Notes under the pieces: model-generated
What the model saw: only the letters and a program-made list of their open reading frames with translations
Told to the model about the DNA's origin: nothing
Database searches by the model: none
Shown here: positions 2,947-14,603 of the stretch, in pieces
How the letters are laid out: every line of letters begins with the position of its first letter
Numbering within the stretch: the first letter of the stretch is position 1
Translations under genes and position numbers: made by a program
From: Methanosarcinaceae archaeon
Lineage (GTDB): Archaea; Halobacteriota; Methanosarcinia; Methanosarcinales; Methanosarcinaceae
Direction of reading: 5' to 3'
Assembly: GCA_030611265.1 (NCBI GenBank)
Contig: JAUWQD010000016.1
Coordinates: forward strand, 1 to 51,178
Length of the DNA: 51,178 nt

Positions 2947-3882
2947 TTAAATCGAAGATAAGACATTTGAGATGTGCGGAAAATAGGTTTTAATGTTGGT
3001 ATTAAATGTCTTTACCTGTCGTTTTTTAGTCGCTTTAGATTGAATCAATACCCATTTTTGTTCCATTCCACCATATGACGATGTCGTTTCATAATACGAG
3101 TATCGCTTATCTGTACAAAATTCTAATTCAACATCTGTATTCTGAAGATCTTTAACTTCATTTATTGTCGCAGGCGGTCTTGTGATCCAAAGAGTTTTTT
3201 TCCCTAACTCGGTGATGTTCTTATCACTGTAAATTGCACTATCAGCAATGTGGTACACTTTTTCATCCAATTCAAGACTATTCTGTATTTTCTTGACAGT
3301 TTTTACTAATGTTGTTTTATCAGGAGCATTTCCCGAAAGAGTTTCTACAAAAAGCGGTATACCTTCCTGATTACACACCATGCCCAGTACAAAACGTTTC
3401 AGATCCCATCGATAATCTTTAGGGTGGCCATAAGTAATCTCAATGGTATTGAGTTCAGGATCACGATTCTCGTAATTTCCATATAGGCTGAAATTGGTTG
3501 TGTCGTTGTGCAGAATATGGTTGTCAAGTGGAACGTTTTTCATAGCTTTGAGAACGATCTTGTTGAAAAGTTCAGTACAACCGTGTTCATATATTTTATC
3601 AAGTGTTCTTCCAAGAACGTCGTCGTTTATGTGTTCCGGGAGAATGCCTTCTCCCAATAATCGTTCTGTTGGGAGGTTTTCAAAATAGTCAGAATAAAGG
3701 TACAGGCGGCTTTCGTTGAAGCCTAAACCATTCAAACACATGGCTTTGATTACTGTGGAATGGGATAAATTGTATTTTCGACTTTTTGGGATGTTGGCAT
3801 CGATTACATCTGCAATATCAAGTTCGTCAAACGTTCCGCTAACTAATCCTAAATGTGATAGTGTTGTAGTTGTTATGTCCAT
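2947..3882 (-). pseudogene. truncated IS1634-like transposase (N-terminal 311 aa only)
   Basis: N-terminal region is homologous to the 1220..2929 product (HNDTTNFSLYGNY, IYHIADSAIY). The C-terminal half is missing. It ends 18 nt from the stop of the convergent intact transposase. Confidence 0.55.
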
Positions 3883-4280: not shown

Positions 4281-6518
4281 TCACAACTTTGCTCCGCACT
4301 CAAGGCAAAACTTTTCATTAACATCTACATCTCTGCCGCAGTTCGGACACTTCTTCACATCCGTACCTGTGCCAATATTTGATCGCTGTACAAGCGAATC
4401 CTTCACCTGCGTTCCGATGTTGTCACCATAGTGATAGAAGTTCTGCACGATACTGTCATTAATGTATCCTTTGACCTGCACGCGCTTTTCCAGTTCATCC
4501 AGTATTCCGTGATAAAATCCAGTCAGTGCATCCTCACGCTCTGCCCATGCTTTGAGTATGAGTTTTGATCTCTTTGCACCGCCAACGACCTCGATCTGCG
4601 CGGCGTATTTCAATTCCTTGACACCTTCGCCGTAGAAGCGCGCCACGCCGTTGAACATCTGAGGTGTAGACGTGACCTCAGGTTCGAGTATGAACATATT
4701 CATATCCTCGATGACTCTTGACACCAAGTTGAATAACGTCTCGCTTGGCATTGAAATATCCTGCGTGGTCTCCTCGGTTTTAACAAGGTGGTTGACTATG
4801 TTTCTCCATTCGGTTTTGTTTATCTCTTTGACCCTGAGAAGTGGACAGACTATACTGAGGGACTTTATTTCAAGGTCGGTCTCCTGACGTTTCTTGGTGC
4901 TGTAATCATAATAGTTTACCCTGCCGGAAACATTACATTCGCCGCATTCGCCGGTAGGTCTTATCTCAAAGGTAACTGTCTTGCTCTCACCCGGCTCAAG
5001 CATAGAGATGGTTTTTTCCTTATTTTCCAGAAGGAAAACGTCAGGTACGAACAGATGGATTTTAATGTCGCCGATTGGGTCAGAGGTTGGGTTTTTGATC
5101 TTGATCTTGTGGATGATCGTTGCGCCTTTGTAGCCGAAGGCGGATGATGTGTTAATTCTGCTTTCTTCTTTTGATTTAATTGTGTCTACGGGCGTTGTAC
5201 TTTTTGTAGGAGCTTTCGTGATTTTAGCTGTGGTTTGAGATACTGTTTTGCTGGATGAAGATGCAGATTTTTTTTTCTTTCTTGCTACAACTACAACCAG
5301 AAAGAGCAGCAACAAGAACAAAATTCCACAAGCGGCTAATAAAATTGGATCAGGGGAGAGATTTGCAGAAACCGATGCAGTCATACCTGAACTCACGGTT
5401 ACTGTTTTAGATAAGTCAGTATAACCTGATTTTGTTAATTTGATGGTATATGAACCAACCGGGATATTTTTTAGAGTTATAGGTGTAATCCCTTTGGATG
5501 TTCCATCGAGGTAAACATTTGTGCCGCTTGGATTTGAAGATATACTGATAGAACCAGTTTGTGCAGTCAATGTTGTAGAAACCGATGCAGTCTTACCTGA
5601 ACTCACTGTTACTGATTTCGAGATGTCAGTGTAACCAGATTTTGTTAATTTGACTGTATGCGAACCTATTGGAACATTGTGTAACGTTATCGGTGTAGTT
5701 CCTTTGGATGTGCCATCAAGGTAAACATTTGCACCACTTGGATTTGAAGATACACTGATGGAACCAGTCTGAGCAATTAGTGATTCTGAAAACGAAATTG
5801 TTTGTCCTGAAATTATAGTTACTGTTTTTAAAATGTCATTGTAACCTGACTTTGTTAATTTAACAGTGTGTGAACCAATTGGAATATCTATTAGGGTAGA
5901 TGATGTAATTCCCTTGGATGTTCCGTCGAAATAGATATTTGCACCACTTGGATTCGACATAATCGAAATCGATCCTTCTGCAATTGTTGGTCTTTTATCA
6001 ACATCATCACGTTTACCATCACCATCTGTATCAGGGTTGTTAGGATCGGTTTTCAAATCTTCAACTTCTACATAATAGGGCAAGTTGTCATGATCGTAAT
6101 CAGACACTTCTTCTACTGAATAACAACGACGCGTTTCAATTACAGTATCAAGTAATTCATTAGTAGCTGGCCATGTCCAATCTATATAGAGACGGTAATA
6201 GAATGTTCTTGGACCTGAGTCACCCATCGTTGATGTATATGCAACCTTTTTAGTTTCTCCAGCTTCGAGCAAAAACTCTATTGTATGAACCAGTCCAGAT
6301 GAACTTTTAACATCGACCTGATAATTAAGTGAATTTGTTCCAGTATTTTTTACTGTAACTTCATATGTTACAGTTTGTCCACTTACTAAAATGTCTGGTT
6401 TTGAATTTGCACTGATAATTTCACCGTCGTTTTTTGCGGCTACTGGAGTACAGAACAGTAAAACTATAATTAGACAAGCTATTAATAATAGCATCCATTT
6501 CGTTTTTATTTTTGCCAT
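4281..6518 (-). CDS. surface protein with signal peptide, CARDB-like and thrombospondin-3-like segments and 3 PEGA repeats; single TM; cytoplasmic CARDB-like plus unknown domain; C-terminal zinc ribbon
   Basis: Signal peptide MAKIKTKWMLLLIACLIIVLL. Three PEGA-like repeats of about 69 aa. TM helix followed by RKKKK. C-terminus ends HYGDNIGTQVKDSLVQRSNIG...CPNCGRDVDVNEKFCLECGAKL. Confidence 0.8.
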   Translation of the reverse strand: MAKIKTKWMLLLIACLIIVLLFCTPVAAKNDGEIISANSKPDILVSGQTVTYEVTVKNTGTNSLNYQVDVKSSSGLVHTIEFLLEAGETKKVAYTSTMGDSGPRTFYYRLYIDWTWPATNELLDTVIETRRCYSVEEVSDYDHDNLPYYVEVEDLKTDPNNPDTDGDGKRDDVDKRPTIAEGSISIMSNPSGANIYFDGTSKGITSSTLIDIPIGSHTVKLTKSGYNDILKTVTIISGQTISFSESLIAQTGSISVSSNPSGANVYLDGTSKGTTPITLHNVPIGSHTVKLTKSGYTDISKSVTVSSGKTASVSTTLTAQTGSISISSNPSGTNVYLDGTSKGITPITLKNIPVGSYTIKLTKSGYTDLSKTVTVSSGMTASVSANLSPDPILLAACGILFLLLLFLVVVVARKKKKSASSSSKTVSQTTAKITKAPTKSTTPVDTIKSKEESRINTSSAFGYKGATIIHKIKIKNPTSDPIGDIKIHLFVPDVFLLENKEKTISMLEPGESKTVTFEIRPTGECGECNVSGRVNYYDYSTKKRQETDLEIKSLSIVCPLLRVKEINKTEWRNIVNHLVKTEETTQDISMPSETLFNLVSRVIEDMNMFILEPEVTSTPQMFNGVARFYGEGVKELKYAAQIEVVGGAKRSKLILKAWAEREDALTGFYHGILDELEKRVQVKGYINDSIVQNFYHYGDNIGTQVKDSLVQRSNIGTGTDVKKCPNCGRDVDVNEKFCLECGAKL
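5348..5978. repeat. three tandem ~207-bp intragenic repeats encoding PEGA domains
   Basis: DNA-level near-repeats (e.g. aaccgatgcagtc(a/t)tacctgaactcac(g/t)gttactg...) encoding the SIS(V/I)SSNPSG(A/T)NVYLDGTSKG repeats. Confidence 0.6.
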
Positions 6519-6562: not shown

Positions 6563-7855
6563 TCAAACCTTCATCCCACACTCCCCACAAAACTTAGCCC
6601 CACTCCGAACCGTCGCCCCGCACTCAGCACACTTCACAACATCAGCAGACACCTTACCCTGCGCCGCTCCCATCATCCCGGCATCCAGTTCCTGCCGCCT
6701 GTATGAATCAGCACGCTCCCTGTCCTCCACATCCATCATGAACTGTACCTTATCTTCCTTAGCTCGTGCCTCAGCTTCCTTCATCTTTGCGAGGGCTTCG
6801 ATCTGCTCAGAAGACATGCCGCTAAGTTCACGACCCTGCACAATCGTGTTGGCAACATCCGCGCCGCCTGTTTCGGTAACCGATTTCAGATACTCCATGT
6901 CGCGTCCATGTTTTCGATCACTCATATCTTCATCAAGTTCCATCTCTGCACGTTTTGCGTCCGTCTTGGAATCTTTCCATGACTTGAATGTATCAATAGC
7001 CTGCCGTGCTTCTGCTGCATCCGCTTCGTTTTCGATAGCCGATCTTTCAGCCTCATGGCGCGCATCCTTTACCATCTCGGCGCGGTCATGTTCGCTCATC
7101 GCAGATTCGGGTGCAATGCCGCTTCTGACCTTTGCAACATCTTCACGCCCCATGCGTTCATGATCGCCTTCAGCGGCAAGAGTGTCTATTTCCTTAAGCT
7201 CCTCTTCATTCTGGAATTTATTTGTTGCATCCAAAACGGAAACATAGTCGCCAAGGTCCCACTGTGCTGTATATCGAAGCAGTTCAAGTCCCCACATGGA
7301 AAGCGTTGTCTTGAGTTGCATCTCAAGTTCATTCTCCATCTTAAGCTGGAGGTCACGGTTGCCGTAGATATTATCCATGGTCACTTGCTTAATTTCAGGT
7401 TCCAGTACCCGTGAGATCGTCTCGCTCTCAAGGCGGCCATATATATCCTGAATAGAAAGCACTCGCCCTCCCTTTTCATCGGGAGTTGTGTAAGCAAAAA
7501 GCATCTGGAAGAAACGCTTTGGGTCTTGCATCTTGAAACGCATAATTCCGCTGCATCCGACCTTCTGGTTGTCGGCTGTCCACAGGTCGGCATGTTCCCA
7601 ATCGAGATCCTTTGGGGATGTGTCCATTAGTGCAACATCCACATCCTTTGCTATGTTGCCCGGTTTGAGCAAACCGCCAACGCGCAGTTTTCCGCTATCG
7701 ATGATCTCTTGAACCACACCGTTTCTGATTATCGCAGCTTTTTCGTTTGGAGATAGTATCACTGATTTAAAAAATACTCCACTGACGTCTTTTTTAGAGA
7801 TTACTCTTGCAATATCATCAATTTGTTTCTTCCATTTGAATACCATATTTACCAC
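6563..7855 (-). CDS. SPFH/band-7 (flotillin-like) protein with charged coiled-coil region and C-terminal zinc ribbon
   Basis: N-terminal SPFH-like motifs (AAIIRNGVVQEI, TADNQKVGCSGIMRFKMQDPKRFF, SMWGLELLRY). Long E/R/K/A-rich helical region. Ends KCAECGATVRSGAKFCGECGMKV. Confidence 0.7.
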   Translation of the reverse strand: MVNMVFKWKKQIDDIARVISKKDVSGVFFKSVILSPNEKAAIIRNGVVQEIIDSGKLRVGGLLKPGNIAKDVDVALMDTSPKDLDWEHADLWTADNQKVGCSGIMRFKMQDPKRFFQMLFAYTTPDEKGGRVLSIQDIYGRLESETISRVLEPEIKQVTMDNIYGNRDLQLKMENELEMQLKTTLSMWGLELLRYTAQWDLGDYVSVLDATNKFQNEEELKEIDTLAAEGDHERMGREDVAKVRSGIAPESAMSEHDRAEMVKDARHEAERSAIENEADAAEARQAIDTFKSWKDSKTDAKRAEMELDEDMSDRKHGRDMEYLKSVTETGGADVANTIVQGRELSGMSSEQIEALAKMKEAEARAKEDKVQFMMDVEDRERADSYRRQELDAGMMGAAQGKVSADVVKCAECGATVRSGAKFCGECGMKV

Positions 7856-7938
7856 ATCCGAACACTTTTATATTTACATAACTAATAGTTTTGTTGCTGT
7901 TACAATATATTAGTAAGTATTATATATATTGTTTTCCA

Positions 7939-7968
7939 TTGTATACAATCGTAATACATATTATGTAT
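7939..7968. promoter_or_regulatory. palindromic candidate operator in divergent promoter region (TTGTATACAA and ATACATA-t-TATGTAT)
   Basis: Perfect 10-bp palindrome at 7939-7948 and a 7-bp inverted repeat at 7954-7968, in the 129-bp AT-rich intergenic region between divergent genes. Confidence 0.4.
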
Positions 7969-7984: not shown

Positions 7985-8140
7985 ATGAAACGATCCTATG
8001 CAGTTAGTGCACGAGTATCAGAAGATAGTAAATTATACCTTGATAAGTTGGTTGAGAGAGGGATAGCGATCAACAAATCTGAAGCATTGAAATTATGTAT
8101 AAGGTATGCCAAGCAAATGAAAATGGAGGAGGAGATATAA
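7985..8140 (+). CDS. small ribbon-helix-helix (CopG/Arc-like) DNA-binding protein
   Basis: 51-aa ORF MKRSYAVSARVSEDSKLYLDKLVERGIAINKSEALKLCIRYAKQMKMEEEI. N-terminal beta-strand then two helices, as in RHH proteins. Stop abuts the ATG of the next gene. Not in the ORF track because it is under 60 aa. Confidence 0.5.
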   Translation: MKRSYAVSARVSEDSKLYLDKLVERGIAINKSEALKLCIRYAKQMKMEEEI

Positions 8141-8704
8141 ATGGGACTAAGTAATCCATTCAAAAAAGTTTCACCGGATGAAATGAAGACAAAACTTTCT
8201 ATGTCCGAGCAGAGATTATCCACACGCGAGAGGGAACTTGATAAAAAACGCCAAAAAGCACGCGATCAGGCAAAGGAAGCGCTTGCAAACGGAAATGACC
8301 GCGAGTTTCGGGTCGCATCCCGCAGGCATTCTATGGTCGAGGGGCAGGTTAATACAATCAGCAGCATGGTTGAAATGGCGCAGTCCATGTCAGATGTTAT
8401 TGAGATGCAGAGCGGACTCAAAGAGGTTGTTGATATTGGAAATGACCTTGGCAAGTGGCAAAAACAACTCGGATTTGACACAAGCAAGTTAGAGGGCGCA
8501 GTTACCAACATCCGCACTTCGATGGAAAAAGTGAATACCGCAACCAACATGATGACCAGTTCAATGGATGCAGCCATGGGCGGCGGAACTGAACTCAGCG
8601 ACATGCAGGATTCCCTCAGGAGTGAACTGCTTGCAGAGCTTAGCAGTGACACAGTATCTGATGACAAGTTGTCAAAAAAGATCGAAGAAGAGATGGAAGA
8701 GTGA
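8141..8704 (+). CDS. ESCRT-III / Snf7-family (CHMP2-like) protein
   Basis: 187 aa. Aligns along its length with CHMP2A-type ESCRT-III (FKKVSPDEMKTKL...ERELDKKRQKARDQAKEALANGNDREFRVASRR...SSMDAAMGGG). C-terminal amphipathic acidic helix DMQDSLRSELLAELS is MIM1-like. GGAGG ribosome-binding site upstream. Confidence 0.75.
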   Translation: MGLSNPFKKVSPDEMKTKLSMSEQRLSTRERELDKKRQKARDQAKEALANGNDREFRVASRRHSMVEGQVNTISSMVEMAQSMSDVIEMQSGLKEVVDIGNDLGKWQKQLGFDTSKLEGAVTNIRTSMEKVNTATNMMTSSMDAAMGGGTELSDMQDSLRSELLAELSSDTVSDDKLSKKIEEEMEE

Positions 8705-8901
8705 ATTAGTGTTTTGGATGATTTGATTCATCCAATACTCTGCGGTTAATTAAAAAAAAATTGATCACTGGAATTTTGTCAATTTTCTTTGTGTCTTTCT
8801 TTGTTCTCTGTGTTTTTTCGAAAAGTTCACGACATAATAAAAATAAATTTGAATTCCAGCAATGATATTATGATTACTGTAGTAGATTAATGAGGAATCC
8901 C

Positions 8902-10077
8902 ATGCCATCAGCAACAACCCTTGCCGCACAAGCACGCGGGTATGCAAAAGCTGCCAGAACATTGGAAGATGAGAACAATCTCAAAAATGCCCGTGAACTC
9001 TACCTCAAGGCAGCCAAGTTATACAATGATGCATCCAAGATCTCAACCGATAAGACTGATACCAACACCCAGCGCGACCTTGCTGAGCATCTTCTCAACA
9101 AAGCACAATCGCTTAAACGTACCAGTGTCCACCAGTCAGGCTCTGGTGTGAGCAGTAGAGATGGTGGTGGAGGCAGTGAAACGGACGAGTCTTCACTGTC
9201 AAAGGACGACCTGATCTTAAAAGAGATCCCGAACATAGGGTTCGATGATATTGGCGGTCTTGAATCTGTGAAAGAGGAGATCAAAAAAGCGATCATCTAC
9301 CCGTTCACCCACAAAGACCTGTATAAGATGTATGGACAGAAAGCAGGCGAGGGAATTCTCCTCTACGGTCCACCGGGATGCGGCAAGACGATGATGGCAA
9401 AGGCTGCTGCAAAGGAATGCGGCGCGGATTTCATTAGCGTCAAGACAAGCAGCATTGTGAGTAAGTGGGTCGGTGCGTCCGAGAAGAACGTCAAACAGGT
9501 GTTTGAGACCGCACGCCAGTCCGAAAAAAGCATTGTCTTTTTCGATGAGATAGATTCCATTGCCGGACGGCGCAGTGAGAGTGAGGACTACGCCAAGCGC
9601 GTGGTAAACGAACTCCTCGCCCAGATGGACGGCGTTGATACAGCCGATGACGAACTCCTGATACTTGCAGCAACCAACGAGCCGTGGGCAATTGACCCTG
9701 CACTCCGCCGCCCCGGGAGGTTTAGTAAACTTGTGTACATTCCCGAACCTGATCTCGATGCCCGCGCTGCGATCTTCAAGATTAATATGAAAGGGCGCCC
9801 GATTGCTGATGATGTTAACGTGAACCGACTTGCCGAGATCACAGAATCCTATTCCGGTGCGGACATTTCCGCTATCTGCAAAGAGGCGGCGGATATCCCC
9901 CTTGGTGAGGCACTTCGCGGTGGCGAGGCTCGGAAGATCGAGGAGCGAGATTTTGTTAAGGTGCTGAAAGGGAGGAAGCCTTCAATTTTGAGCTGGTATG
10001 TTGAGGCTCGGAAGGAGGTTAAGAAGAGTGGGGAAGAAGCTGTGTTTGATGGGATTGTTAAAAGCAGGGTTGATTAG
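8902..10077 (+). CDS. Vps4/CdvC-like MIT-domain AAA+ ATPase
   Basis: N-terminal roughly 75-aa three-helix MIT-like region. Linker, then AAA domain with Walker A GPPGCGKT, Walker B VFFDEID and ATNEPWAIDPALRRPGRF. Start taken at the ATG at 8902 (GAGGA ribosome-binding site 5 nt upstream) rather than 8890. Confidence 0.8.
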   Translation: MPSATTLAAQARGYAKAARTLEDENNLKNARELYLKAAKLYNDASKISTDKTDTNTQRDLAEHLLNKAQSLKRTSVHQSGSGVSSRDGGGGSETDESSLSKDDLILKEIPNIGFDDIGGLESVKEEIKKAIIYPFTHKDLYKMYGQKAGEGILLYGPPGCGKTMMAKAAAKECGADFISVKTSSIVSKWVGASEKNVKQVFETARQSEKSIVFFDEIDSIAGRRSESEDYAKRVVNELLAQMDGVDTADDELLILAATNEPWAIDPALRRPGRFSKLVYIPEPDLDARAAIFKINMKGRPIADDVNVNRLAEITESYSGADISAICKEAADIPLGEALRGGEARKIEERDFVKVLKGRKPSILSWYVEARKEVKKSGEEAVFDGIVKSRVD

Positions 10078-10080
10078 AAG

Positions 10081-12531
10081 ATGGGAATTGATGTAAAAAA
10101 ATCGAAATCCGAAGAAAATTTGGGTATTGGTTTAAGCACTGGAGCAATTGTAGGATTTATTATTGGTTTTATTGTAAGAACAATTGCTTTTAAAATATCA
10201 GTTGGATTAATTGTAGGATTAATTTGTAGTATAATTGCTAGTAATATTAGTGTTGATAGAAAAAATAGTCCACTATACGGTTTGGTTTTTGGTTCAATAA
10301 TTGGCGCCGTTTTGGGTTTATTTTTTGGATTGATTTTAGGATCAGTTTTTGATGTCATATATAATTTCAATTCAATAGTGTTTACTAATCTAATTTTAGG
10401 AGGGATTGTTGGCGGATATACAATCTTTAAAATATTTTACGACGCTAAAAAAAGAACAATTGAATATGAAAATGAAATTAGTGACAATATTGACATAAAT
10501 ATTGACTCTCAAAATCCATTTATACTTGGTGTCAATAATTCATTTGAAATAACAGTAAATAATGGAACTGAAATCCCAATTACAAATATTAGTCTAATAT
10601 CAAATTTTCCAAATTCCTTGATTTGCAATGAAACTCTTAAACCAATAGACATAGTTCCTGCGAAATCATCAGAATCAAAAACTCTTTTATTAACTCCAAC
10701 AGTTGCTGAAGAAATCGATTTGGGCAACCTTGCAGTGACACTTGAAATTGACGGTTATACTTATGAAAAAGAACCTGTTAAAATCGGTATTTTTGATGTG
10801 ATTCCACCTGAAATTAACATTCAAATAAATGTCCCCAATCAACTTAAAGTCGGAATAGAAAATCCAGTTAAAATTACAGTGAAAAATCAATCGGATGTAC
10901 TTCTATCCAATGTTCAAATTGAAACCAACTTTTCAAGACTAATAACATGTGATGAAACTATAGTGCACACTGATGATATCCCTGCAAATTCATCTGAATA
11001 CACAGCCATATTCATAACTCCAAGAATTGCTGATAAAATTGATTTGGGCAACCTCAATTTATCATTTGACATTAATGAAACCACATACAAAAAAGAACCA
11101 ATCGCAATGGGAATTTATGAAGCAGTAGAAGTAACATCACATAAACCCACAAAATATTCAGATGACATCAATTCAGACCTTTCGATATCCCGCGAAACCG
11201 AATTCTATCAAGGTTTTATCCGCTTCAAAATGTCTGTCACCAACACTTCATCCTTTGTAGTGAACGATGTTGCTCTCGATTTTGATTATGATCACAACTT
11301 ATTGCGAATTGATAGACGTGAACCTGATTACCAGATCAAAAATGGTAGAACAATATTTGGAAACATCTCATCCAATTCATCAAAAACGATTGCAGTCTAC
11401 TTTGACCCAATGATGTGTTCTAAAAGTGCAGATATCAACTGTCAGGTAAATTACAAGGATGCAAAAGGACAACCTCAAACTACACACATGGAGCCAAAAA
11501 AGATCAGTGTTGTTTGTCCGATAATGGAAACTGAATCTGATATAAACATCGGACGGCTCAAAGAGTTTATTGAAAAACTGTCATATCGGGACAGTAAAGT
11601 GTACCAAATTCAGAATAGTTTTGATATTGATGTGCTAAAAAACATTTCCCGGGAAATTGTGCAAAAGCATGATGTTAAGCATATACGGACGCTTTTCACT
11701 AAAGATGGAAACACATGCGAAATATGGTATTATGGCAAGACAAAAGTGCATAGCCATGATATTGTCATAAAAATTACAATTTTAAGTGAAACACAAAACA
11801 TTGAACTTTTTGCTGCAACTCAAACCGTGGAATCACTGGCCGGACTTCTGGCAGAGGTTGGGCGTGAGTTGAAAGGTGCGATTGAAAGTAAGGTTACTGG
11901 CAATGTCCAGCAGGTAATCAATGTTTCAATCAAGGATTCAATTATCCAGCGAAGTAATCTTTTGAGTTATTGTGATATTAACGGTAATTGCAGTGGTGAT
12001 GTTGTAATTGAAGATAGTTTTGTGCAGCGTTCGGATGTAGGCACTGTTAAATCTGAAAATGAAGACGGAGTAAAAGATATGGATAAATCTAAAGTACACG
12101 AATATTTAGTTAGTATCGTAAAAGATGGATCAAATATTGAAGATATCAAGATCGAATACGGCCAAGTTATAGAGTATTTTAATCTTGATGAGAAAAAAGC
12201 TATTTTCCCATTGCTTACCATACTTGATGAAATTTGTAGCGAAAATCATCACAAAAATGAGCCCTTTTTATCTGCGATTGTAGTAAGTCAAAGCAAAAAA
12301 GGACTTGTACGCATTCCTGGACCAGGTTTTTTTAAAAAATGGATGGTACCACCATATAGAGATTATGATGGTCCGTCCGATGGTCCAGAAGCCCACAAAA
12401 TCCACGAACAAGAACTTGAACGTGTGTTTAACTACTGGCACAACGACAATAAAAACTCATGCCCTGCATGCGGTGAGATCGTGCCGGATGGTGCGAAGTT
12501 CTGCATGGAATGCGGTACAAAAATTGAATAA
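10081..12531 (+). CDS. polytopic membrane protein with glycine-zipper TM helices, two ~110-aa Ig-like repeats, CARDB-like plus unknown domain, C-terminal zinc ribbon
   Basis: Four predicted TM helices rich in GxxxG. Tandem repeats (ITVNNGTEIPITNISLISNF... / ITVKNQSDVLLSNVQIETNF...). The module VNYKD...ISVVCPIM is homologous to the cytoplasmic module of the 4281..6518 product. Ends CPACGEIVPDGAKFCMECGTKIE. Confidence 0.8.
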   Translation: MGIDVKKSKSEENLGIGLSTGAIVGFIIGFIVRTIAFKISVGLIVGLICSIIASNISVDRKNSPLYGLVFGSIIGAVLGLFFGLILGSVFDVIYNFNSIVFTNLILGGIVGGYTIFKIFYDAKKRTIEYENEISDNIDINIDSQNPFILGVNNSFEITVNNGTEIPITNISLISNFPNSLICNETLKPIDIVPAKSSESKTLLLTPTVAEEIDLGNLAVTLEIDGYTYEKEPVKIGIFDVIPPEINIQINVPNQLKVGIENPVKITVKNQSDVLLSNVQIETNFSRLITCDETIVHTDDIPANSSEYTAIFITPRIADKIDLGNLNLSFDINETTYKKEPIAMGIYEAVEVTSHKPTKYSDDINSDLSISRETEFYQGFIRFKMSVTNTSSFVVNDVALDFDYDHNLLRIDRREPDYQIKNGRTIFGNISSNSSKTIAVYFDPMMCSKSADINCQVNYKDAKGQPQTTHMEPKKISVVCPIMETESDINIGRLKEFIEKLSYRDSKVYQIQNSFDIDVLKNISREIVQKHDVKHIRTLFTKDGNTCEIWYYGKTKVHSHDIVIKITILSETQNIELFAATQTVESLAGLLAEVGRELKGAIESKVTGNVQQVINVSIKDSIIQRSNLLSYCDINGNCSGDVVIEDSFVQRSDVGTVKSENEDGVKDMDKSKVHEYLVSIVKDGSNIEDIKIEYGQVIEYFNLDEKKAIFPLLTILDEICSENHHKNEPFLSAIVVSQSKKGLVRIPGPGFFKKWMVPPYRDYDGPSDGPEAHKIHEQELERVFNYWHNDNKNSCPACGEIVPDGAKFCMECGTKIE

Positions 12532-12567
12532 TACAACGATTTATCAACGACAGTGGTGAGTGAAAAT

Positions 12568-13422
12568 ATGGCATATACCAACCAATCAAAAGTCAATAAA
12601 GACTTAAATGAGTTCTTGCGTGAACTGAGCAGTGGAAGTTACAGAACACGTACAAGCGCCGCAATAAATATGTCAGTACTTGCTAAAAAAGGTGTTTACC
12701 ATAATAATGCTATCCAACCACTTGTCGATTTGTTGTCTGATAAGTATAAATCGGTGCGAAAGCAGGCGGCTTTTGCACTTGGAGATATTGCAGAATGTGG
12801 AGTTTGGGACAAAAATGCGATAATACCATTAAAGGAACTATTATCTGACAAAGATCATGAAGTGCGATGGAGTGCGACTTTTGCACTAAGGACACTTGCT
12901 AAAAATGATATTTTTGAACGCAACGCAATACAATGCTTTGAAAAATTATTGTTTGACAGATATCACCGTGTACGCTATAATGCTGCATTTGCACTTGGTG
13001 CTCTTGCAGAGCATGAAATTTGTTCTAAGTCTACACTATACCCTTTAATCACTTTATTAGCTGACCGCAACAGTATGGTACGTAGAAGTGCTGCTTTTTC
13101 AATTGGTTGTCTTGCAAATAATGATATCTTTGATTGTGTTGCCGTCAAACCATTGACTTATTTGCTGTCAGATAAGAATCATGTTGTCCGCAAAAATGCT
13201 GCACAGGCACTTACAGTGCTGAACGAGAAGGGTGCAGGCAGGGTCAATGAAAAGAATATGGTGCAACACATTCACTACGGAGATAACATTGGTACGCAGG
13301 TAAAAGATAGTTTTGTCTATAAATCCAGCATTAATGATGCTGCCAAAACGTGTCCTTCATGCGGACGCGAAGTTGGAGAGGATGAGCAATTTTGTACGGA
13401 ATGCGGGGAGAGATTAATATGA
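12568..13422 (+). CDS. HEAT-repeat (PBS-lyase-like) protein with C-terminal zinc ribbon
   Basis: Six repeats of the type PLxxLLSDKxxxVRxxAAFALGxxA. Ends HYGDNIGTQVKDSFVYKSSI...CPSCGREVGEDEQFCTECGERLI. Start taken at the ATG at 12568 with a GGTGA ribosome-binding site. Confidence 0.75.
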   Translation: MAYTNQSKVNKDLNEFLRELSSGSYRTRTSAAINMSVLAKKGVYHNNAIQPLVDLLSDKYKSVRKQAAFALGDIAECGVWDKNAIIPLKELLSDKDHEVRWSATFALRTLAKNDIFERNAIQCFEKLLFDRYHRVRYNAAFALGALAEHEICSKSTLYPLITLLADRNSMVRRSAAFSIGCLANNDIFDCVAVKPLTYLLSDKNHVVRKNAAQALTVLNEKGAGRVNEKNMVQHIHYGDNIGTQVKDSFVYKSSINDAAKTCPSCGREVGEDEQFCTECGERLI

Positions 13423-14603
13423 CCGACAACGAAACCGACCCAACGACCCTCCAGCAAACAAACCGCCAGACCGCAATCAACAACCTGCGAGATACGCATG
13501 CTGCAATTGAAAGACTGATGAATAAAACCTATCAGCAGCAGGATGTAACTGCAAGTTCAGCACTCCGCCAGATCAGGACAAAGGTAACTGCGCTGCTTTC
13601 AGACATGGAGAACATAGATCTCGATACATTCAGCGGACGGGAGGGGACACTGGATGAGTTCTACAACAATGAGGGACGTTTCATCGAAAGCTCAACCGGA
13701 CTGCTAATAACAGCCGAAGATGCTTTGGAGTCAAGCGAATCAGTCGATACATATTCAATCGAAAGTTCAGTCGATTCACTGGAGAAGAACTTCAACAACC
13801 GTATCGTCATCACAAAAAAGCATTTACAAGAAGATGAAAAACGACAAACAGAATCCCAGTCCCGGAAAGAAACGCCGGACAAGGAACTGGGCAGCAGCGC
13901 GCCGGATGCAGAACCAAAAACCGAATCGCCCGCGTGGCTTGATGATACAACTAAAGATTACGCATCATTAATACCAAAACTCTACAACTATATCAACACC
14001 CTTGAACAAAAATACACTCACTGTCAGCCTGAAGTTTCAAACAACGGTGATTATCTTGGAAACAAGACATGGAAAGTCGATCTCCTTGATTACGGTATTC
14101 GCGGCACAGTCAAAGATGGGGCATTCAAAATACCGCTTGTTTTTGAAACATGCTGGTACCCATTAAACAGTGTGCTGGAAGCCGCACAGTTTGTGCAGTC
14201 GCAGGCGAATGCGGTTGGCAAAAGCCAGTACAAGAGCCTGTGTCTTATCAACGATGTATGGAACAATGAAATCAAGGAGTGGGCTAAAGATTTTGTTCAT
14301 CAGCGCATGTCGCTGTTCTTGTATGAACTGGAAAATGACACGCTCACCTATAAAGACAAATCAGAAATCACAGAACGGTTCGAGTTCTGGCATTCCAATA
14401 CTATATTTAAAGCACCTATTGAAGAGGAGATGAAAATTCTTATCGAGAAAATGGAATATCTCACGGTAAATGATGTCATGGGAATGTTTGGGTTCAATAC
14501 AAAAGGAGCAGAGGCGTATCTCTATGACCTGATGAAAAAAGGAGAGATCCTTGACGTTGGGCTTGACAGTCCAAAATATACGAAGGTTAAACATCGTGAA
14601 TAG
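13419..14603 (+). CDS. hypothetical protein: coiled-coil N-terminus, acidic disordered middle, C-terminal winged-helix-like region
   Basis: 395-aa product. ATGA overlap with the upstream gene stop implies translational coupling. The C-terminal roughly 55 aa have a helix-turn-helix plus wing pattern. Confidence 0.6.
   Translation: MTDNETDPTTLQQTNRQTAINNLRDTHAAIERLMNKTYQQQDVTASSALRQIRTKVTALLSDMENIDLDTFSGREGTLDEFYNNEGRFIESSTGLLITAEDALESSESVDTYSIESSVDSLEKNFNNRIVITKKHLQEDEKRQTESQSRKETPDKELGSSAPDAEPKTESPAWLDDTTKDYASLIPKLYNYINTLEQKYTHCQPEVSNNGDYLGNKTWKVDLLDYGIRGTVKDGAFKIPLVFETCWYPLNSVLEAAQFVQSQANAVGKSQYKSLCLINDVWNNEIKEWAKDFVHQRMSLFLYELENDTLTYKDKSEITERFEFWHSNTIFKAPIEEEMKILIEKMEYLTVNDVMGMFGFNTKGAEAYLYDLMKKGEILDVGLDSPKYTKVKHRE

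What the first reader, a model, noticed from the sequence alone, without database searches (positions are those of the whole stretch)
8141..10077. ESCRT-III protein carries a C-terminal MIM1-like helix matched by an N-terminal MIT domain in the adjacent Vps4-like ATPase
The 187-aa product aligns end to end with CHMP2-type ESCRT-III. Its N-terminal basic helix is FKKVSPDEMKTKLSMSEQRLSTRERELDKKRQKARDQAKEALANGNDREF, and a SSMDAAMGGG segment corresponds to DAIDDAMG of CHMP2A. It finishes with an acidic amphipathic helix, DMQDSLRSELLAELS, resembling the MIM1 consensus (D/E)xxLxxRLxxL. The next gene opens with a roughly 75-aa three-helix MIT-like segment before a meiotic-clade AAA domain. This is the canonical ESCRT-III to Vps4 recruitment pair. 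The 8890 versus 8902 start ambiguity of the ATPase matters for the first MIT helix.
Basis: partly seen in the sequence, partly recalled or inferred. Interest (0 to 1): 0.75.

Follow-up and report, generated by a model that had tools for sequence, protein, structure and literature searches.

The report
Known archaeal ESCRT-III/Vps4 pair, MIM helix misassigned
The two genes are an ESCRT-III-like protein and a Vps4-like ATPase of a membrane-remodelling system already described in 2024 in related methane archaea; the helix proposed as the ATPase docking site is more likely an internal helix, and a better candidate sits at the very end of the protein.

Summary
The ORFs and quoted sequences are real. 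The 187-aa protein (8141-8704) belongs to the ESCRT-III/Snf7 superfamily. Its direct Pfam match is below threshold, but a transitive profile link, the predicted fold, the charge asymmetry and conserved linkage to the ATPase all agree. The next gene encodes a three-helix MIT-like domain, a disordered linker, one AAA domain and a C-terminal helix, which is the Vps4/CdvC architecture. Its conserved start is 8902, not 8890, and the choice does not touch the first MIT helix. Raw similarity of the AAA domain is highest to CDC48 D2. A neighbour-joining tree nevertheless groups it with Vps4/CdvC/spastin/katanin (180/200 bootstraps). The whole locus matches the 'Meth_adaptin' ESCRT system of Makarova et al. 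2024 (mBio), whose tables already list Methanosarcinales orthologues of both genes. The MIM1 claim is weak. The protein does not end with DMQDSLRSELLAELS; 19 residues follow. That helix lies inside the Snf7 profile match (alpha5 position). An invariant Glu replaces the MIM1 Arg, and the helix is weakly amphipathic. The last residues (DDKLSKKIEEEM; family ExxLxxKIxxE[KR]) fit MIM1 better and sit where the terminal helix of a related protein aligns. No complex prediction could be run. Verdict: ordinary, already described system with one refined detail.

The parts
4281..6518 (-). Membrane protein. It has a signal/TM segment, extracellular CARDB and three PEGA domains, a TM segment, a cytoplasmic Ig-like/appendage-like region, a 'HYGDNIGTQVKDSLVQRS' motif and a C-terminal zinc ribbon. 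It probably corresponds to one of the two 'adaptin appendage' proteins of the Meth_adaptin system.
   Evidence: Pfam PEGA 5.5e-56, CARDB 2.1e-8, Zn_Ribbon_1 2.1e-6, NPCBM_assoc 1.4e-5, weak Coatomer_g_Cpla E=0.065. Conserved on the same side of the locus in most of the 38 loci. The published system is described in PMC10936438.
6563..7855 (-). SPFH/Band-7 protein with a coiled-coil region and a C-terminal zinc ribbon, transcribed divergently from the ESCRT operon.
   Evidence: Pfam Band_7 1.3e-8 (35.5 bits, cut-off 23.6) and Zn_Ribbon_1 7.1e-6. Present next to the RHH gene in 33 of the 38 loci; four of the other five have too little sequence upstream to show it. It corresponds to the SPFH-CC-Znr component in PMC10936438.
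7921..7947 (+). Conserved promoter/operator-like element TATATATATTGTTTTCCATTGTATACA. It holds a TATA-box-like run and the palindrome TTGTATACAA, and lies upstream of the RHH-ESCRT-III operon.
   Evidence: Unique in the window, 0 expected by chance. The 16-mer core GTTTTCYATTGTATAC occurs exactly once in 32 of 38 related loci, always on the + strand upstream of the RHH gene. Function is inferred.
7985..8140 (+). 51-aa ribbon-helix-helix protein. Its stop codon abuts the ESCRT-III start codon. It is probably the operon's transcriptional regulator.
   Evidence: Pfam RHH_1 E=0.0079, sub-threshold. A cluster member is named 'Arc/MetJ-type RHH transcriptional regulator' by JGI. It is 71-90% identical in 37 of 38 loci. 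GGCGGAG lies upstream and TAA abuts ATG 8141. It is absent from the M. zhilinae rows retrieved from the published neighbourhood table, which leave a 266-bp gap at that position.
8141..8704 (+). ESCRT-III/Snf7-superfamily protein, 187 aa. Predicted helices are alpha1 12-49, alpha2/3 53-110, alpha4 115-146 and a C-terminal helical region 149-186.
   Evidence: Pfam Snf7 sub-threshold but near full length. The family profile hits P0353 at E=3.6e-5 in 1.84e9 proteins, and P0353 has Snf7 at 58 bits against a cut-off of 27.3. hhalign to P0353 gives 89.8%. AF2 pLDDT is 72.9. Foldseek top hits are CdvB, Asgard ESCRT-IIIB, CHMP2A/3, Vipp1, CHMP1B and Snf7. Residues 1-62 have net charge +7 and residues 63-187 have -14.
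8600..8644 (+). The family motif is Q[ED]SL[KR]xEL[ML]AE[LIM] (residues 156-167). It is most likely alpha5, the acidic packing/autoinhibitory helix, not the MIM.
   Evidence: L159, E162, L163 and E166 are invariant in 71 sequences. The helix lies inside the Snf7 profile match 16-167. It aligns with CHMP2A alpha5 (not significant) and with alpha5 of P0359 (53%). Hydrophobic moment is 0.07-0.44.
8660..8695 (+). Terminal motif, residues 174-185, DDKLSKKIEEEM. The family pattern is ExxLxxKIxxE[KR]. It is the better MIM1-like candidate for MIT binding.
   Evidence: L177 is L in 57/71 sequences, K180 in 61/71, I181 in 67/71. The family consensus fits 5 of the 6 specified MIM1 positions and the window sequence fits 4. 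Hydrophobic moment is 0.45-0.59. It aligns with the start of the terminal helix KIKELEEELNRLKND of P0359. Binding is inferred, not shown.
8902..10077 (+). Vps4/CdvC-like AAA ATPase, 391 aa from the conserved start. It has an MIT-like three-helix bundle, a disordered linker, an AAA domain with lid and a C-terminal helix. It has no beta-domain.
   Evidence: AF2 pLDDT is 81.5. Helices are 8-27, 31-51 and 55-78; the linker 78-103 has pLDDT 26; the C-terminal helix is 365-380 (8890 numbering). AAA 4.6e-45 and lid 2e-11. The NCBIfam CdvC alignment covers 7-373. NJ tree: with the meiotic clade in 180/200 replicates, with CDC48 D2 in 2/200. Start.
8911..9123 (+). MIT-like domain of the ATPase (residues 8-78 in 8890 numbering).
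   Evidence: Pfam MIT E=0.0041, full profile length but sub-threshold. The family profile hits the calpain-7 MIT at E=0.0071. Three orthologues carry precomputed PF04212. pLDDT is about 85-90.
9463..9474 (+). Pore loop 1, KWVG, within SIVSKWVGASEKNVKQVF. It is Vps4/CdvC-like; compare SKWLGEAEKNV in M. sedula and A. hospitalis CdvC.
   Evidence: K192, W193, V194 and G195 are invariant in the 22-sequence alignment. The CdvC sequences were printed by the PDB search.
10081..12531 (+). 816-aa membrane protein with repeated Ig-like regions, two '[KE]DSxxQRS' motifs and a C-terminal zinc ribbon. It starts 3 nt after the ATPase stop. It is a paralogue of the cytoplasmic part of the 745-aa protein.
   Evidence: Zn_Ribbon_1 2.6e-7. 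Junction sequence. tblastn cross-hits with PEGA745 at 22-25% identity, and variable presence among loci.
12553..13422 (+). HEAT-repeat protein with the same 'HYGDNIGTQVKDSFV' motif and a C-terminal zinc ribbon.
   Evidence: HEAT 5.9e-32, Zn_Ribbon_1 1.6e-6. Found with this window's query in only 3 of the 38 loci (L001, L031, L033).
13419..14603 (+). Protein of about 395 aa with no Pfam hit. It is probably the counterpart of the published 'coiled-coil + C-terminal wHTH' protein (WP_013898572). Its ATG overlaps the HEAT gene stop codon (ATGA).
   Evidence: No Pfam hit. Conserved immediately downstream of the ATPase in most loci. Overlap and GGGGAGAG upstream. Published annotation.

Best explanation
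The region is the core of a 'Meth_adaptin'-type archaeal ESCRT system in a Methanosarcinaceae chromosome. One + strand gene run encodes a small RHH regulator, an ESCRT-III-like filament protein, a Vps4-like AAA ATPase, a membrane Ig/zinc-ribbon protein, a HEAT/zinc-ribbon protein and a coiled-coil/wHTH protein. A 185-bp AT-rich spacer with T-runs separates the ESCRT-III and ATPase genes, so a single transcript is not shown. An SPFH/zinc-ribbon protein and a PEGA/zinc-ribbon membrane protein are encoded divergently. Inferred mechanism: the ESCRT-III protein binds membrane through its basic N-terminal helix and short hydrophobic-basic N-terminus and polymerises. Its invariant acidic helix 156-167 acts as alpha5, giving intramolecular autoinhibition in the monomer or inter-subunit packing in the polymer. 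The short amphipathic terminal helix 174-185 (ExxLxxKIxxE[KR]) is exposed and recruits the MIT domain of the hexameric ATPase. The ATPase then pulls subunits through its KWVG pore to remodel or disassemble the polymer. Shown here: fold and family assignments, domain architecture, the conserved start at 8902, conserved synteny and motif conservation. Inferred: polymerisation, which helix contacts MIT, and the cellular role. The role is probably vesicle formation, protein sorting or membrane maintenance rather than division. That rests on established knowledge that Methanosarcinales divide with FtsZ, which PMC10936438 argues for these systems.
For: ESCRT-III: Pfam Snf7 covers 16-167 and 18/22 members hit it. 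There is a transitive link through P0353. AF2 plus Foldseek give top hits that are all ESCRT-III superfamily. The charge asymmetry fits. Vps4-like: MIT evidence, architecture, CdvC profile coverage 7-373, tree with 180/200, and a pore loop like CdvC. System identity: synteny in 38 loci. The published Meth_adaptin description and tables list M. zhilinae, Methanococcoides and Methanohalophilus orthologues as ESCRT-III (arCOG00454) and Vps4 (arCOG01307). Hits in my searches come from the same genera. Alpha5 versus MIM assignment. No proline-rich MIM2 is present, since the last 50 residues hold at most one Pro. Start codon: GAGG lies 6 nt upstream of 8902 and overlaps the 8890 ATG. Nineteen of 21 homologues start at the 8902-equivalent. 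That position is ATG or TTG in 26 of the 34 loci examined. The 391-aa product is in the public collection and the 395-aa one is not.
Confidence: 0.85

Rival explanations
1. One reading: helix 154-168 (DMQDSLRSELLAELS) is the MIM1 that docks into the alpha2/alpha3 groove of the MIT domain.
For: It is the most conserved stretch of the C-terminal half (L159, E162, L163 and E166 invariant; Q156 and A165 nearly so). It has the Lxx(x)L spacing of MIM1. Two related ESCRT-III-like proteins, P0353 and P0359, have C-terminal LxxE[IL]xxLK motifs, so Glu at the 'Arg' position may be tolerated.
Against: It is not terminal, since 19 residues follow. It lies inside the Snf7 profile match and aligns with alpha5 of CHMP2A and P0359. 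Invariant Glu occupies both the Arg and the third-Leu positions. Its hydrophobic moment is low. It stays invariant between clades whose MIT helix 3 differs markedly.
Confidence: 0.2
2. The ATPase is not a Vps4 relative. It is a single-domain CDC48/VAT-D2 derivative that acquired a TPR/MIT-like helical N-domain. The pair would then work like a PspA/Vipp1-type membrane-repair filament with a generic unfoldase.
For: The best sequence and structure matches of the AAA module are p97/CDC48 D2. NCBIfam scores are CDC48 281 > PAN 251 > CdvC 227 for the AAA part. The SRH reads RRPGRF, as in classic-clade AAA proteins. There is no Vps4_C hit and no beta-domain. The N-terminal profile also hits a TPR-like protein at 3e-4. 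SPFH-PspA links are known in bacteria (cited in PMC10936438).
Against: Grouping with CDC48 D2 occurs in only 2/200 bootstraps, against 180/200 with the meiotic clade. M. sedula CdvC scores about as well against archaeal CDC48 D2 (171-184 bits) as against eukaryotic Vps4 (177-181 bits), so high similarity to CDC48 D2 is not diagnostic. The pore loop SKWVGxSEKNV and the 'ATNxPW' motif are CdvC/Vps4-like. The N-terminus aligns in register with CdvC and VPS4B MIT.
Confidence: 0.1
3. The MIT domain does not recognise the ESCRT-III C-terminus at all. Recruitment goes through another locus protein, such as the CC-wHTH protein, the RHH protein (whose KKMEEE[LI] tail resembles the ESCRT-III tail) or the shared zinc-ribbon modules.
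For: In several Methanoperedens loci the ATPase gene is not adjacent to the ESCRT-III gene. Four locus proteins share a C-terminal zinc ribbon that could be a common docking tag. The RHH tail resembles the ESCRT-III tail.
Against: MIT to ESCRT-III C-terminal motif recognition is the conserved rule in eukaryotes, Asgard and Crenarchaeota (established knowledge; PMC10936438). Both C-terminal motifs of the ESCRT-III protein are under strong conservation. The RHH protein sits next to a conserved palindromic promoter element, which fits a DNA-binding role.
Confidence: 0.1

Closest known systems
'Meth_adaptin' ESCRT system (Makarova et al. 2024, mBio 15:e00335-24; PMC10936438), exemplified by Methanosalsum zhilinae WP_013898571-578
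   Same: The gene set and order match: ESCRT-III (arCOG00454) directly upstream of Vps4 (arCOG01307), a divergent SPFH-coiled-coil-zinc-ribbon gene, a coiled-coil/wHTH protein downstream of Vps4, and Ig/appendage-type membrane proteins with zinc ribbons. A M. zhilinae ATPase (P0141) is 66% identical to the window's.
   Different: This window adds a HEAT-repeat/zinc-ribbon gene and an 816-aa membrane paralogue between the ATPase and the CC-wHTH gene. No ProX was seen in the stretch examined. The 51-aa RHH gene and the conserved promoter element were not found in the passages and table rows of the paper that I retrieved. The paper does not name a MIM for this clade.
Crenarchaeal CdvB/CdvC (Sulfolobales, Metallosphaera, Acidianus; PDB 4LCB, 4D80)
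   Same: An ESCRT-III-like gene lies next to a MIT-linker-AAA ATPase. The pore loop is SKW[LV]GxxEKNV, the 'ATNxPW' motif is shared, and the size is similar (367-391 aa). The N-terminal domain aligns in register.
   Different: CdvB carries a wH domain and is reported to use a proline-rich MIM2 (established knowledge). Here there is no wH and no proline motif. The SRH reads RRPGRF rather than RRFQKR. The NCBIfam CdvC equivalog threshold is not met. There is no CdvA.
Eukaryotic Vps2/CHMP2-Vps4 MIM1-MIT recruitment
   Same: A basic N-terminal hairpin and an acidic C-terminal half. A short C-terminal amphipathic helix has acidic-xx-L-xx-basic-hydrophobic spacing (D174xxL177xxK180I181). The ATPase has an N-terminal three-helix domain and a flexible linker.
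   Different: The third MIM1 Leu is Glu, and Lys replaces Arg. The protein is shorter (187 against about 220 aa) with a 7-residue alpha5-to-tail linker. The ATPase lacks the beta-domain (Vta1 site). No CHMP2-specific similarity could be shown.
Bacterial PspA/Vipp1 with SPFH partner (e.g. B. subtilis PspA-YdjI)
   Same: An ESCRT-III-superfamily filament protein is genomically linked to an SPFH protein. Vipp1 structures are among the fold hits.
   Different: PspA systems have no MIT-AAA disassembly ATPase. This protein hits Snf7, not the PspA_IM30 family, in Pfam.
CDC48/VAT/p97 D2 AAA module
   Same: It gives the highest raw sequence and structural similarity of the AAA domain (39-40% identity over about 280 columns). 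GPPGCGKT and RPGRF motifs are shared.
   Different: This protein has a single AAA domain and a MIT-like rather than a double-psi-barrel N-domain. It groups with CDC48 D2 in 2/200 bootstraps only.

Membership tests
ESCRT-III / Snf7 superfamily (PF03357; arCOG00454) | Sequence-profile match to the Snf7 family | tested here: inconclusive
   The direct hit is sub-threshold (21.1 bits against 27.3, E=2.7e-4) but spans 16-167 and profile positions 3-157 of 171. Eighteen of 22 members hit, best 3.1e-5. A transitive link meets the threshold: the family profile hits P0353 at E=3.6e-5 in 1.84e9 proteins, and P0353 has Snf7 at 58 bits. hhalign to P0353 gives 89.8%. A profile search of PDB sequences found no ESCRT-III.
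ESCRT-III / Snf7 superfamily (PF03357; arCOG00454) | Fold: a long alpha1-alpha2 hairpin followed by alpha3-alpha5 | tested here: met
ESCRT-III / Snf7 superfamily (PF03357; arCOG00454) | Basic N-terminal part and acidic C-terminal part | tested here: met
   Residues 1-62 have net charge +7 (pI 10.4). Residues 63-187 have net charge -14 (pI 4.3).
ESCRT-III / Snf7 superfamily (PF03357; arCOG00454) | Membrane-bound polymerisation | not testable with these tools
   Needs biochemistry or EM.
   Q156xxL159xxE162L163xxE166L167: the Arg position and the third Leu position are invariant Glu (71/71). Nineteen residues follow the helix. It lies inside the Snf7 domain match and aligns to alpha5.
MIM1: terminal motif 174-185 | Consensus (D/E)xxLxxRLxxL(K/R) in a helix at the extreme C-terminus | tested here: inconclusive
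   The family pattern ExxLxxKIxxE[KR] fits 5 of the 6 specified positions when Lys stands for Arg and Ile for Leu. The third Leu is Glu or Ala. The window sequence D174xxL177xxK180I181xxE184M185 fits 4. The motif is terminal and amphipathic (hydrophobic moment 0.45-0.59). Binding was not tested.
MIM2 | Proline-rich strand motif, (L/V)Px(V/L)P-like, in the C-terminal region | tested here: not met
   The window protein has no proline after residue 12. Family members have at most one Pro in the last 50 residues.
MIT domain (PF04212) | N-terminal three-helix bundle matching the MIT profile | tested here: inconclusive
   The Pfam match is sub-threshold (17.6 bits against 30) but spans profile positions 3-65 of 66. 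Three orthologues carry precomputed PF04212. The calpain-7 MIT is hit at E=0.0071. hhalign gives 71% to CdvC MIT and 67% to VPS4B MIT, in register. AF2 gives three helices with pLDDT about 85-90. A TPR-like protein is also hit.
MIT-MIM recruitment pair | Physical MIT-helix interface | not testable with these tools
No multimer tool was available.
Vps4/CdvC (arCOG01307; NCBIfam NF041006) | Architecture: MIT, flexible linker, single AAA with lid, C-terminal helix | tested here: met
   AF2 shows this architecture. The CdvC HMM aligns residues 7-373 to model positions 3-360 of 370.
Vps4/CdvC (arCOG01307; NCBIfam NF041006) | Curated equivalog score | tested here: not met
   245 bits against a cut-off of 650. 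Typed human VPS4B AAA also scores only 225 on this crenarchaeal model, so the cut-off defines CdvC orthologues narrowly.
Vps4/CdvC (arCOG01307; NCBIfam NF041006) | Beta-domain / Vps4_C (PF09336) | tested here: not met
   The C-terminal 94 residues have no PF09336 hit. There is no insertion between lid helices 323-342 and 352-360.
Meiotic clade of AAA ATPases (Vps4, katanin, spastin) | Phylogenetic grouping of the AAA module | tested here: met
   NJ tree on 261 columns with 21 modules: with the meiotic clade in 180/200 replicates, with CdvC in 100/200, with CDC48 D2 in 2/200. The M. sedula CdvC AAA region was verified against PDB and the A. hospitalis sequence was copied from the PDB output.
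Meth_adaptin ESCRT system (PMC10936438) | Vps4 and ESCRT-III with an SPFH-CC-Znr protein and a CC-wHTH protein in one neighbourhood, in Methanosarcinales | tested here: met
   The nearest genomes are Methanosarcinaceae.
Meth_adaptin ESCRT system (PMC10936438) | Two adaptin-appendage (Ig + TBP) proteins; ProX | tested here: inconclusive
   Two paralogous Ig-rich zinc-ribbon membrane proteins are present. The only direct signal is a weak Coatomer_g_Cpla hit at E=0.065. Appendage/TBP fold and GOLD were not tested. ProX was not found among the ORFs scanned.

The most novel reading that the evidence does not exclude
This euryarchaeal ESCRT-III family may use a non-canonical, bipartite MIT-binding module. 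One part is the family-invariant acidic helix Q-x-S-L-[KR]-x-E-L-x-A-E-[LIM], a charge-reversed MIM1-like element. The other part is a truncated terminal MIM1-like motif LxxKIxxE. The machinery may also be wired to osmotic or membrane-stress signalling. Two observations point that way: the Methanoperedens orthologues of the ATPase are fused to a diadenylate cyclase domain, and glycine-betaine-binding ProX genes occur in published loci.
Probability: 0.15. Interest if true: 0.55.

Novelty: already known. Interest (0 to 1): 0.25.

Why it matters
As found, it matters little. The ESCRT-III/Vps4 pair of Methanosarcinales and its neighbourhood were catalogued in 2024, and a MIT-MIM pairing is the textbook expectation. 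The useful residue is practical. This small, closed family (84 hits at E<=0.001 among 1.84 billion cluster representatives) has two sharply conserved C-terminal motifs. That makes the question of which helix recruits Vps4 in a euryarchaeal ESCRT system directly testable with two peptides and a handful of point mutants. The conserved RHH gene with its promoter palindrome gives a handle on how the system is regulated. If the Vps4-diadenylate-cyclase fusion in Methanoperedens is functional, it would link archaeal ESCRT to c-di-AMP/osmotic signalling, which would be new.

Tried and rejected
1. Complex prediction.

2. Sequence-profile searches of PDB with the ESCRT-III family profiles found only spurious coiled-coil or BAR hits and marginal IST1 hits. 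This gave no direct link.

The 'CHMP2-type' label is dropped.

5. Foldseek and phmmer of the ATPase put p97/CDC48 D2 first. I considered reclassifying the ATPase as CDC48-like. I rejected this after calibration: M. sedula CdvC scores about as well against archaeal CDC48 D2 (171-184 bits) as against eukaryotic Vps4 (177-181 bits). The bootstrap tree also argues against it.

6. Covariation between MIT helix 3 and the tail. The MIT 'LAEHL' Glu changes to Lys together with tail K180 to Gln in one Methanoperedenaceae-like clade. A further clade has Gln with Lys retained. This amounts to one event, so it is anecdotal and not used as evidence.

7. Eight contig look-ups for distant family members yielded four more ESCRT-III + AAA pairs. 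Three other contigs showed the ESCRT-III gene without an adjacent AAA gene, and in the eighth the downstream gene has no Pfam hit on record and no DNA was held.

8. The whole-library HMMER search did not merge the family with mainstream Snf7. Only a few weak bridging hits appeared.

Full report
THE OBSERVATION

The two ORFs exist as described. 8141-8704 (+) encodes a 187-aa protein containing every quoted segment, and 8890-10077 (+) encodes an AAA ATPase. The 187-aa protein hits Pfam Snf7 over residues 16-167, which is profile positions 3-157 of 171. The score is below the curated threshold (21.1 bits against 27.3; E=2.7e-4). The ATPase has a strong AAA domain (4.6e-45) and lid. Scanned alone, its first 120 residues hit Pfam MIT over the whole profile (positions 3-65 of 66), again sub-threshold (17.6 bits against 30; E=0.004). 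More evidence was needed.

IS THE 187-AA PROTEIN AN ESCRT-III?

- The homologues form a small, closed family of proteins about 185-190 aa long. They come from Methanosarcinaceae (Methanolobus, Methanococcoides, Methanohalophilus, Methanosalsum, Methanomethylovorans), Methanoperedens and some Thermoplasmatota.
- A profile search that reads all 1.84 billion cluster representatives found only 84 hits at E<=0.001.
- Eighteen of 22 members give the same sub-threshold, full-length Snf7 hit.
- One distant hit of the family profile, P0353 (E=3.6e-5 library-wide), carries a bona fide Snf7 domain at 58 bits against 27.3. It aligns to the family with 89.8% hhalign probability over alpha1-alpha4. This closes the homology argument transitively.
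- An AlphaFold2 model built on 71 sequences (pLDDT 72.9) has helices 12-49, 53-110, 115-146 and 149-186.
- Foldseek's best PDB hits are S. islandicus CdvB, Asgard ESCRT-IIIB, CHMP2A/CHMP3, Vipp1, CHMP1B/IST1 and the Snf7 core (TMt 0.84, rmsd 2.1 Å). The E-values are weak (at least 0.066).
- The charge split is classical. Residues 1-62 have net charge +7 and residues 63-187 have -14.
- 'CHMP2-type' could not be shown.

IS THE ATPASE VPS4-LIKE?

The AlphaFold2 model (pLDDT 81.5) shows a three-helix bundle at 8-27, 31-51 and 55-78 with pLDDT about 85-90. A disordered linker follows at 78-103 (pLDDT 26), then one AAA domain with lid and a C-terminal helix at 365-380. There is no beta-domain insertion.

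Evidence for the MIT domain:
- The N-terminal family profile hits the calpain-7 MIT domain in PDB at E=0.007.
- It aligns in register with the MIT of A. hospitalis CdvC (hhalign 71%) and of human VPS4B (67%).
- Three orthologues carry a precomputed PF04212 hit.
- The NCBIfam CdvC model aligns residues 7-373, although far below its equivalog cut-off.

Evidence on the AAA clade:
- By raw similarity the AAA module is closest to CDC48/p97 D2. phmmer per-domain scores are 256-259 bits for archaeal CDC48 D2, 236 for p97 D2, 194-207 for eukaryotic Vps4 and 183-190 for CdvC.
- I treated this as a serious rival and then calibrated it. M. sedula CdvC (AAA region verified against PDB 4D80) scores about as well against archaeal CDC48 D2 (171-184 bits) as against eukaryotic Vps4 (177-181 bits).
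- Typed VPS4B scores CDC48 about equal to CdvC on the NCBIfam models.
- In a neighbour-joining tree of 21 AAA modules (261 columns, 200 bootstraps), this family groups with Vps4/CdvC/spastin/katanin in 180 replicates, with CdvC specifically in 100, and with CDC48 D2 in 2.
- The pore loop SKWVGASEKNV and the 'ATNEPW' motif match CdvC.

THE START CODON

Nineteen of 21 homologues begin at the position of the 8902 ATG. In 26 of the 34 related loci examined, that codon is ATG or TTG and is preceded by a purine-rich stretch. In the window, GAGG (8892-8895) lies 6 nt upstream of 8902 and overlaps the 8890 ATG. The 391-aa product is in the public collection and the 395-aa one is not. The first helix starts at residue 8 in 8890 numbering, so the choice is irrelevant to the MIT fold.

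THE MIM CLAIM

This is the weak part.

The protein does not end with DMQDSLRSELLAELS (residues 154-168). Residues 169-187 follow. In 71 sequences the C-terminal region holds two conserved motifs:
- Motif A, residues 156-167: Q[ED]SL[KR]xEL[ML]AE[LIM]. L159, E162, L163 and E166 are invariant.
- Motif B, residues 174-185: ExxLxxKIxxE[KR]. L177 is L in 57/71 sequences, K180 in 61/71 and I181 in 67/71.

Motif A compared with MIM1, (D/E)xxLxxRLxxL(K/R):
- It matches only two leucines.
- It has invariant Glu where MIM1 has Arg and where it has the third Leu.
- It lies inside the Snf7 profile match.
- It aligns with alpha5 of CHMP2A (not significant) and of P0359 (53%).
- Its helical hydrophobic moment is low, 0.07-0.44.

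Motif B compared with MIM1:
- It is terminal and strongly amphipathic (0.45-0.59).
- The family consensus fits 5 of 6 consensus positions and the window sequence 4, with Lys standing for Arg and Ile for Leu.
- It aligns with the beginning of the terminal helix KIKELEEELNRLKND of P0359. I did not scan P0359 itself against Pfam. It resembles P0353, which has a bona fide Snf7 domain.

There is no proline-rich MIM2.

My reading is that motif A is alpha5 and motif B is the MIM1-like element. I hold it at roughly 40% for motif B alone, 20% for motif A, and the rest for both or neither. A hint of covariation amounts to a single event and is not relied on. The MIT helix-3 Glu changes to Lys together with tail K180 to Gln in one clade.

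CONTEXT AND IDENTITY OF THE SYSTEM

Across 38 loci from GTDB genomes the arrangement is conserved:
- PEGA/Ig zinc-ribbon membrane protein (-)
- SPFH zinc-ribbon protein (-)
- then, divergently: RHH (+), ESCRT-III (+), ATPase (+), variable Ig/zinc-ribbon or HEAT proteins, and a protein of about 400 aa (+)

In the window the junctions are tight:
- The RHH stop codon abuts ATG 8141.
- The ATPase stop codon is 3 nt from ATG 10081.
- The HEAT stop codon overlaps ATG 13419.

This is the 'Meth_adaptin' ESCRT system of Makarova et al. 2024 (PMC10936438). Their text and tables describe Vps4 (arCOG01307), ESCRT-III (arCOG00454), SPFH-CC-Znr, two adaptin-appendage proteins, a coiled-coil/wHTH protein and ProX in Methanosalsum zhilinae. 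They list Methanococcoides and Methanohalophilus orthologues. The paper selects Vps4 by the presence of MIT or by context, and does not name a MIM for this clade. The window itself is an ordinary methanogen/ANME-type chromosome segment with Mch, Trm1, Trm5 and an XPD-like helicase. It is closest to 'Methanosarcinaceae archaeon HMMV2'.

MECHANISM (INFERRED)

The ESCRT-III protein polymerises on membrane. Alpha5 (motif A) packs on the hairpin. The terminal helix recruits the MIT domain of the hexameric ATPase. The ATPase threads subunits through the KWVG pore.

The zinc-ribbon, SPFH, HEAT and Ig proteins presumably define the site or the cargo. Methanosarcinales use FtsZ for division (established knowledge, and argued in PMC10936438). 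The role is therefore probably vesicle formation, protein sorting or membrane maintenance.

VERDICT

The pair is correctly recognised, but it is an already published system. The specific helix proposed as MIM1 is probably alpha5. The start-codon concern is moot.

Side observations worth keeping:
- a conserved 51-aa RHH gene with a highly conserved TATA/palindrome element;
- a shared C-terminal zinc-ribbon tag on four locus proteins;
- Methanoperedens orthologues of the ATPase fused to a diadenylate cyclase domain. I found no mention of this fusion in the searchable literature.

Noticed in passing
related proteins P0169, P0153 and about ten other Methanoperedens-type orthologues of about 560 aa; not in the window: Methanoperedens orthologues of this Vps4-like ATPase carry a C-terminal diadenylate cyclase (DAC/DisA_N, PF02457) domain. 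In P0169 it scores 59 bits against a cut-off of 27, at residues 434-555, after MIT-AAA-lid. No paper in the searchable library links diadenylate cyclase with Vps4 in a relevant way: the two hits are unrelated. Together with ProX in published loci, this hints at a c-di-AMP/osmotic-stress link.
   Followed up: partly
window 7985-8140 (+): A 51-aa ribbon-helix-helix protein is encoded immediately upstream of the ESCRT-III gene (TAA abuts ATG 8141). It is conserved at 71-90% identity in 37 of 38 related loci. It is absent from the M. zhilinae rows retrieved from the 2024 paper's neighbourhood table, which leave a 266-bp gap at that position. Its C-terminus KKMEEE[LI] resembles the ESCRT-III tail KKIE(E/S)EM.
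   Followed up: partly
window 7921-7947 (+); also L001-L037 upstream of the RHH gene: The element TATATATWWKGTTTTCYATTGTATACA is conserved at nucleotide level. It holds a TATA-like box and the palindrome TTGTATACAA. It is unique in the window. Its 16-mer core occurs exactly once in 32 of 38 loci, always upstream of the RHH gene. It is likely the operon promoter and an RHH operator.
   Followed up: partly
window 4281-6518 (-), 6563-7855 (-), 10081-12531 (+), 12553-13422 (+): Four proteins of the locus end with the same zinc ribbon, CPxCG...FCxECG. The 745-aa and HEAT proteins also share 'HYGDNIGTQVKDS[LF]V' just before it, and the 816-aa protein has two '[KE]DSxxQRS' copies. This looks like a common C-terminal docking module. 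Its partner is unknown.
   Followed up: no
window 8705-8901: A 185-bp AT-rich spacer separates the ESCRT-III and ATPase genes. It has T-runs (tgtgttttttcg) followed by an A/T-rich TATA-like stretch (ataataaaaataaattt). Most relatives have only 60-120 bp here. It could be a partial terminator plus an internal promoter that sets the ESCRT-III:ATPase ratio.
   Followed up: no
L034, L036, L035, L037 (Methanoperedens-type loci); L040, L042, L044: In several Methanoperedens and more distant contigs the ESCRT-III gene is not followed by the ATPase gene. In L030 the ATPase lies about 5 kb downstream. In L040, L042 and L044 no AAA gene is seen within 5-6 kb. Adjacency of the pair is therefore not universal in the family.
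   Followed up: partly
window 1220-2929 (+) and 2947-3882 (-): Two ORFs with DUF4277 domains (7.7e-18 and 5.2e-43) lie just left of the ESCRT locus. DUF4277 is typical of IS/transposase-associated proteins, which suggests mobile-element remnants at the locus border. That link is from my own recollection and was not checked.
   Followed up: no
window 13419-13422: The likely start of the coiled-coil/wHTH-type gene is ATG 13419, which overlaps the HEAT gene stop codon (ATGA) and has GGGGAGAG upstream. It is not the TTG at 13392 listed by the ORF finder.
   Followed up: yes
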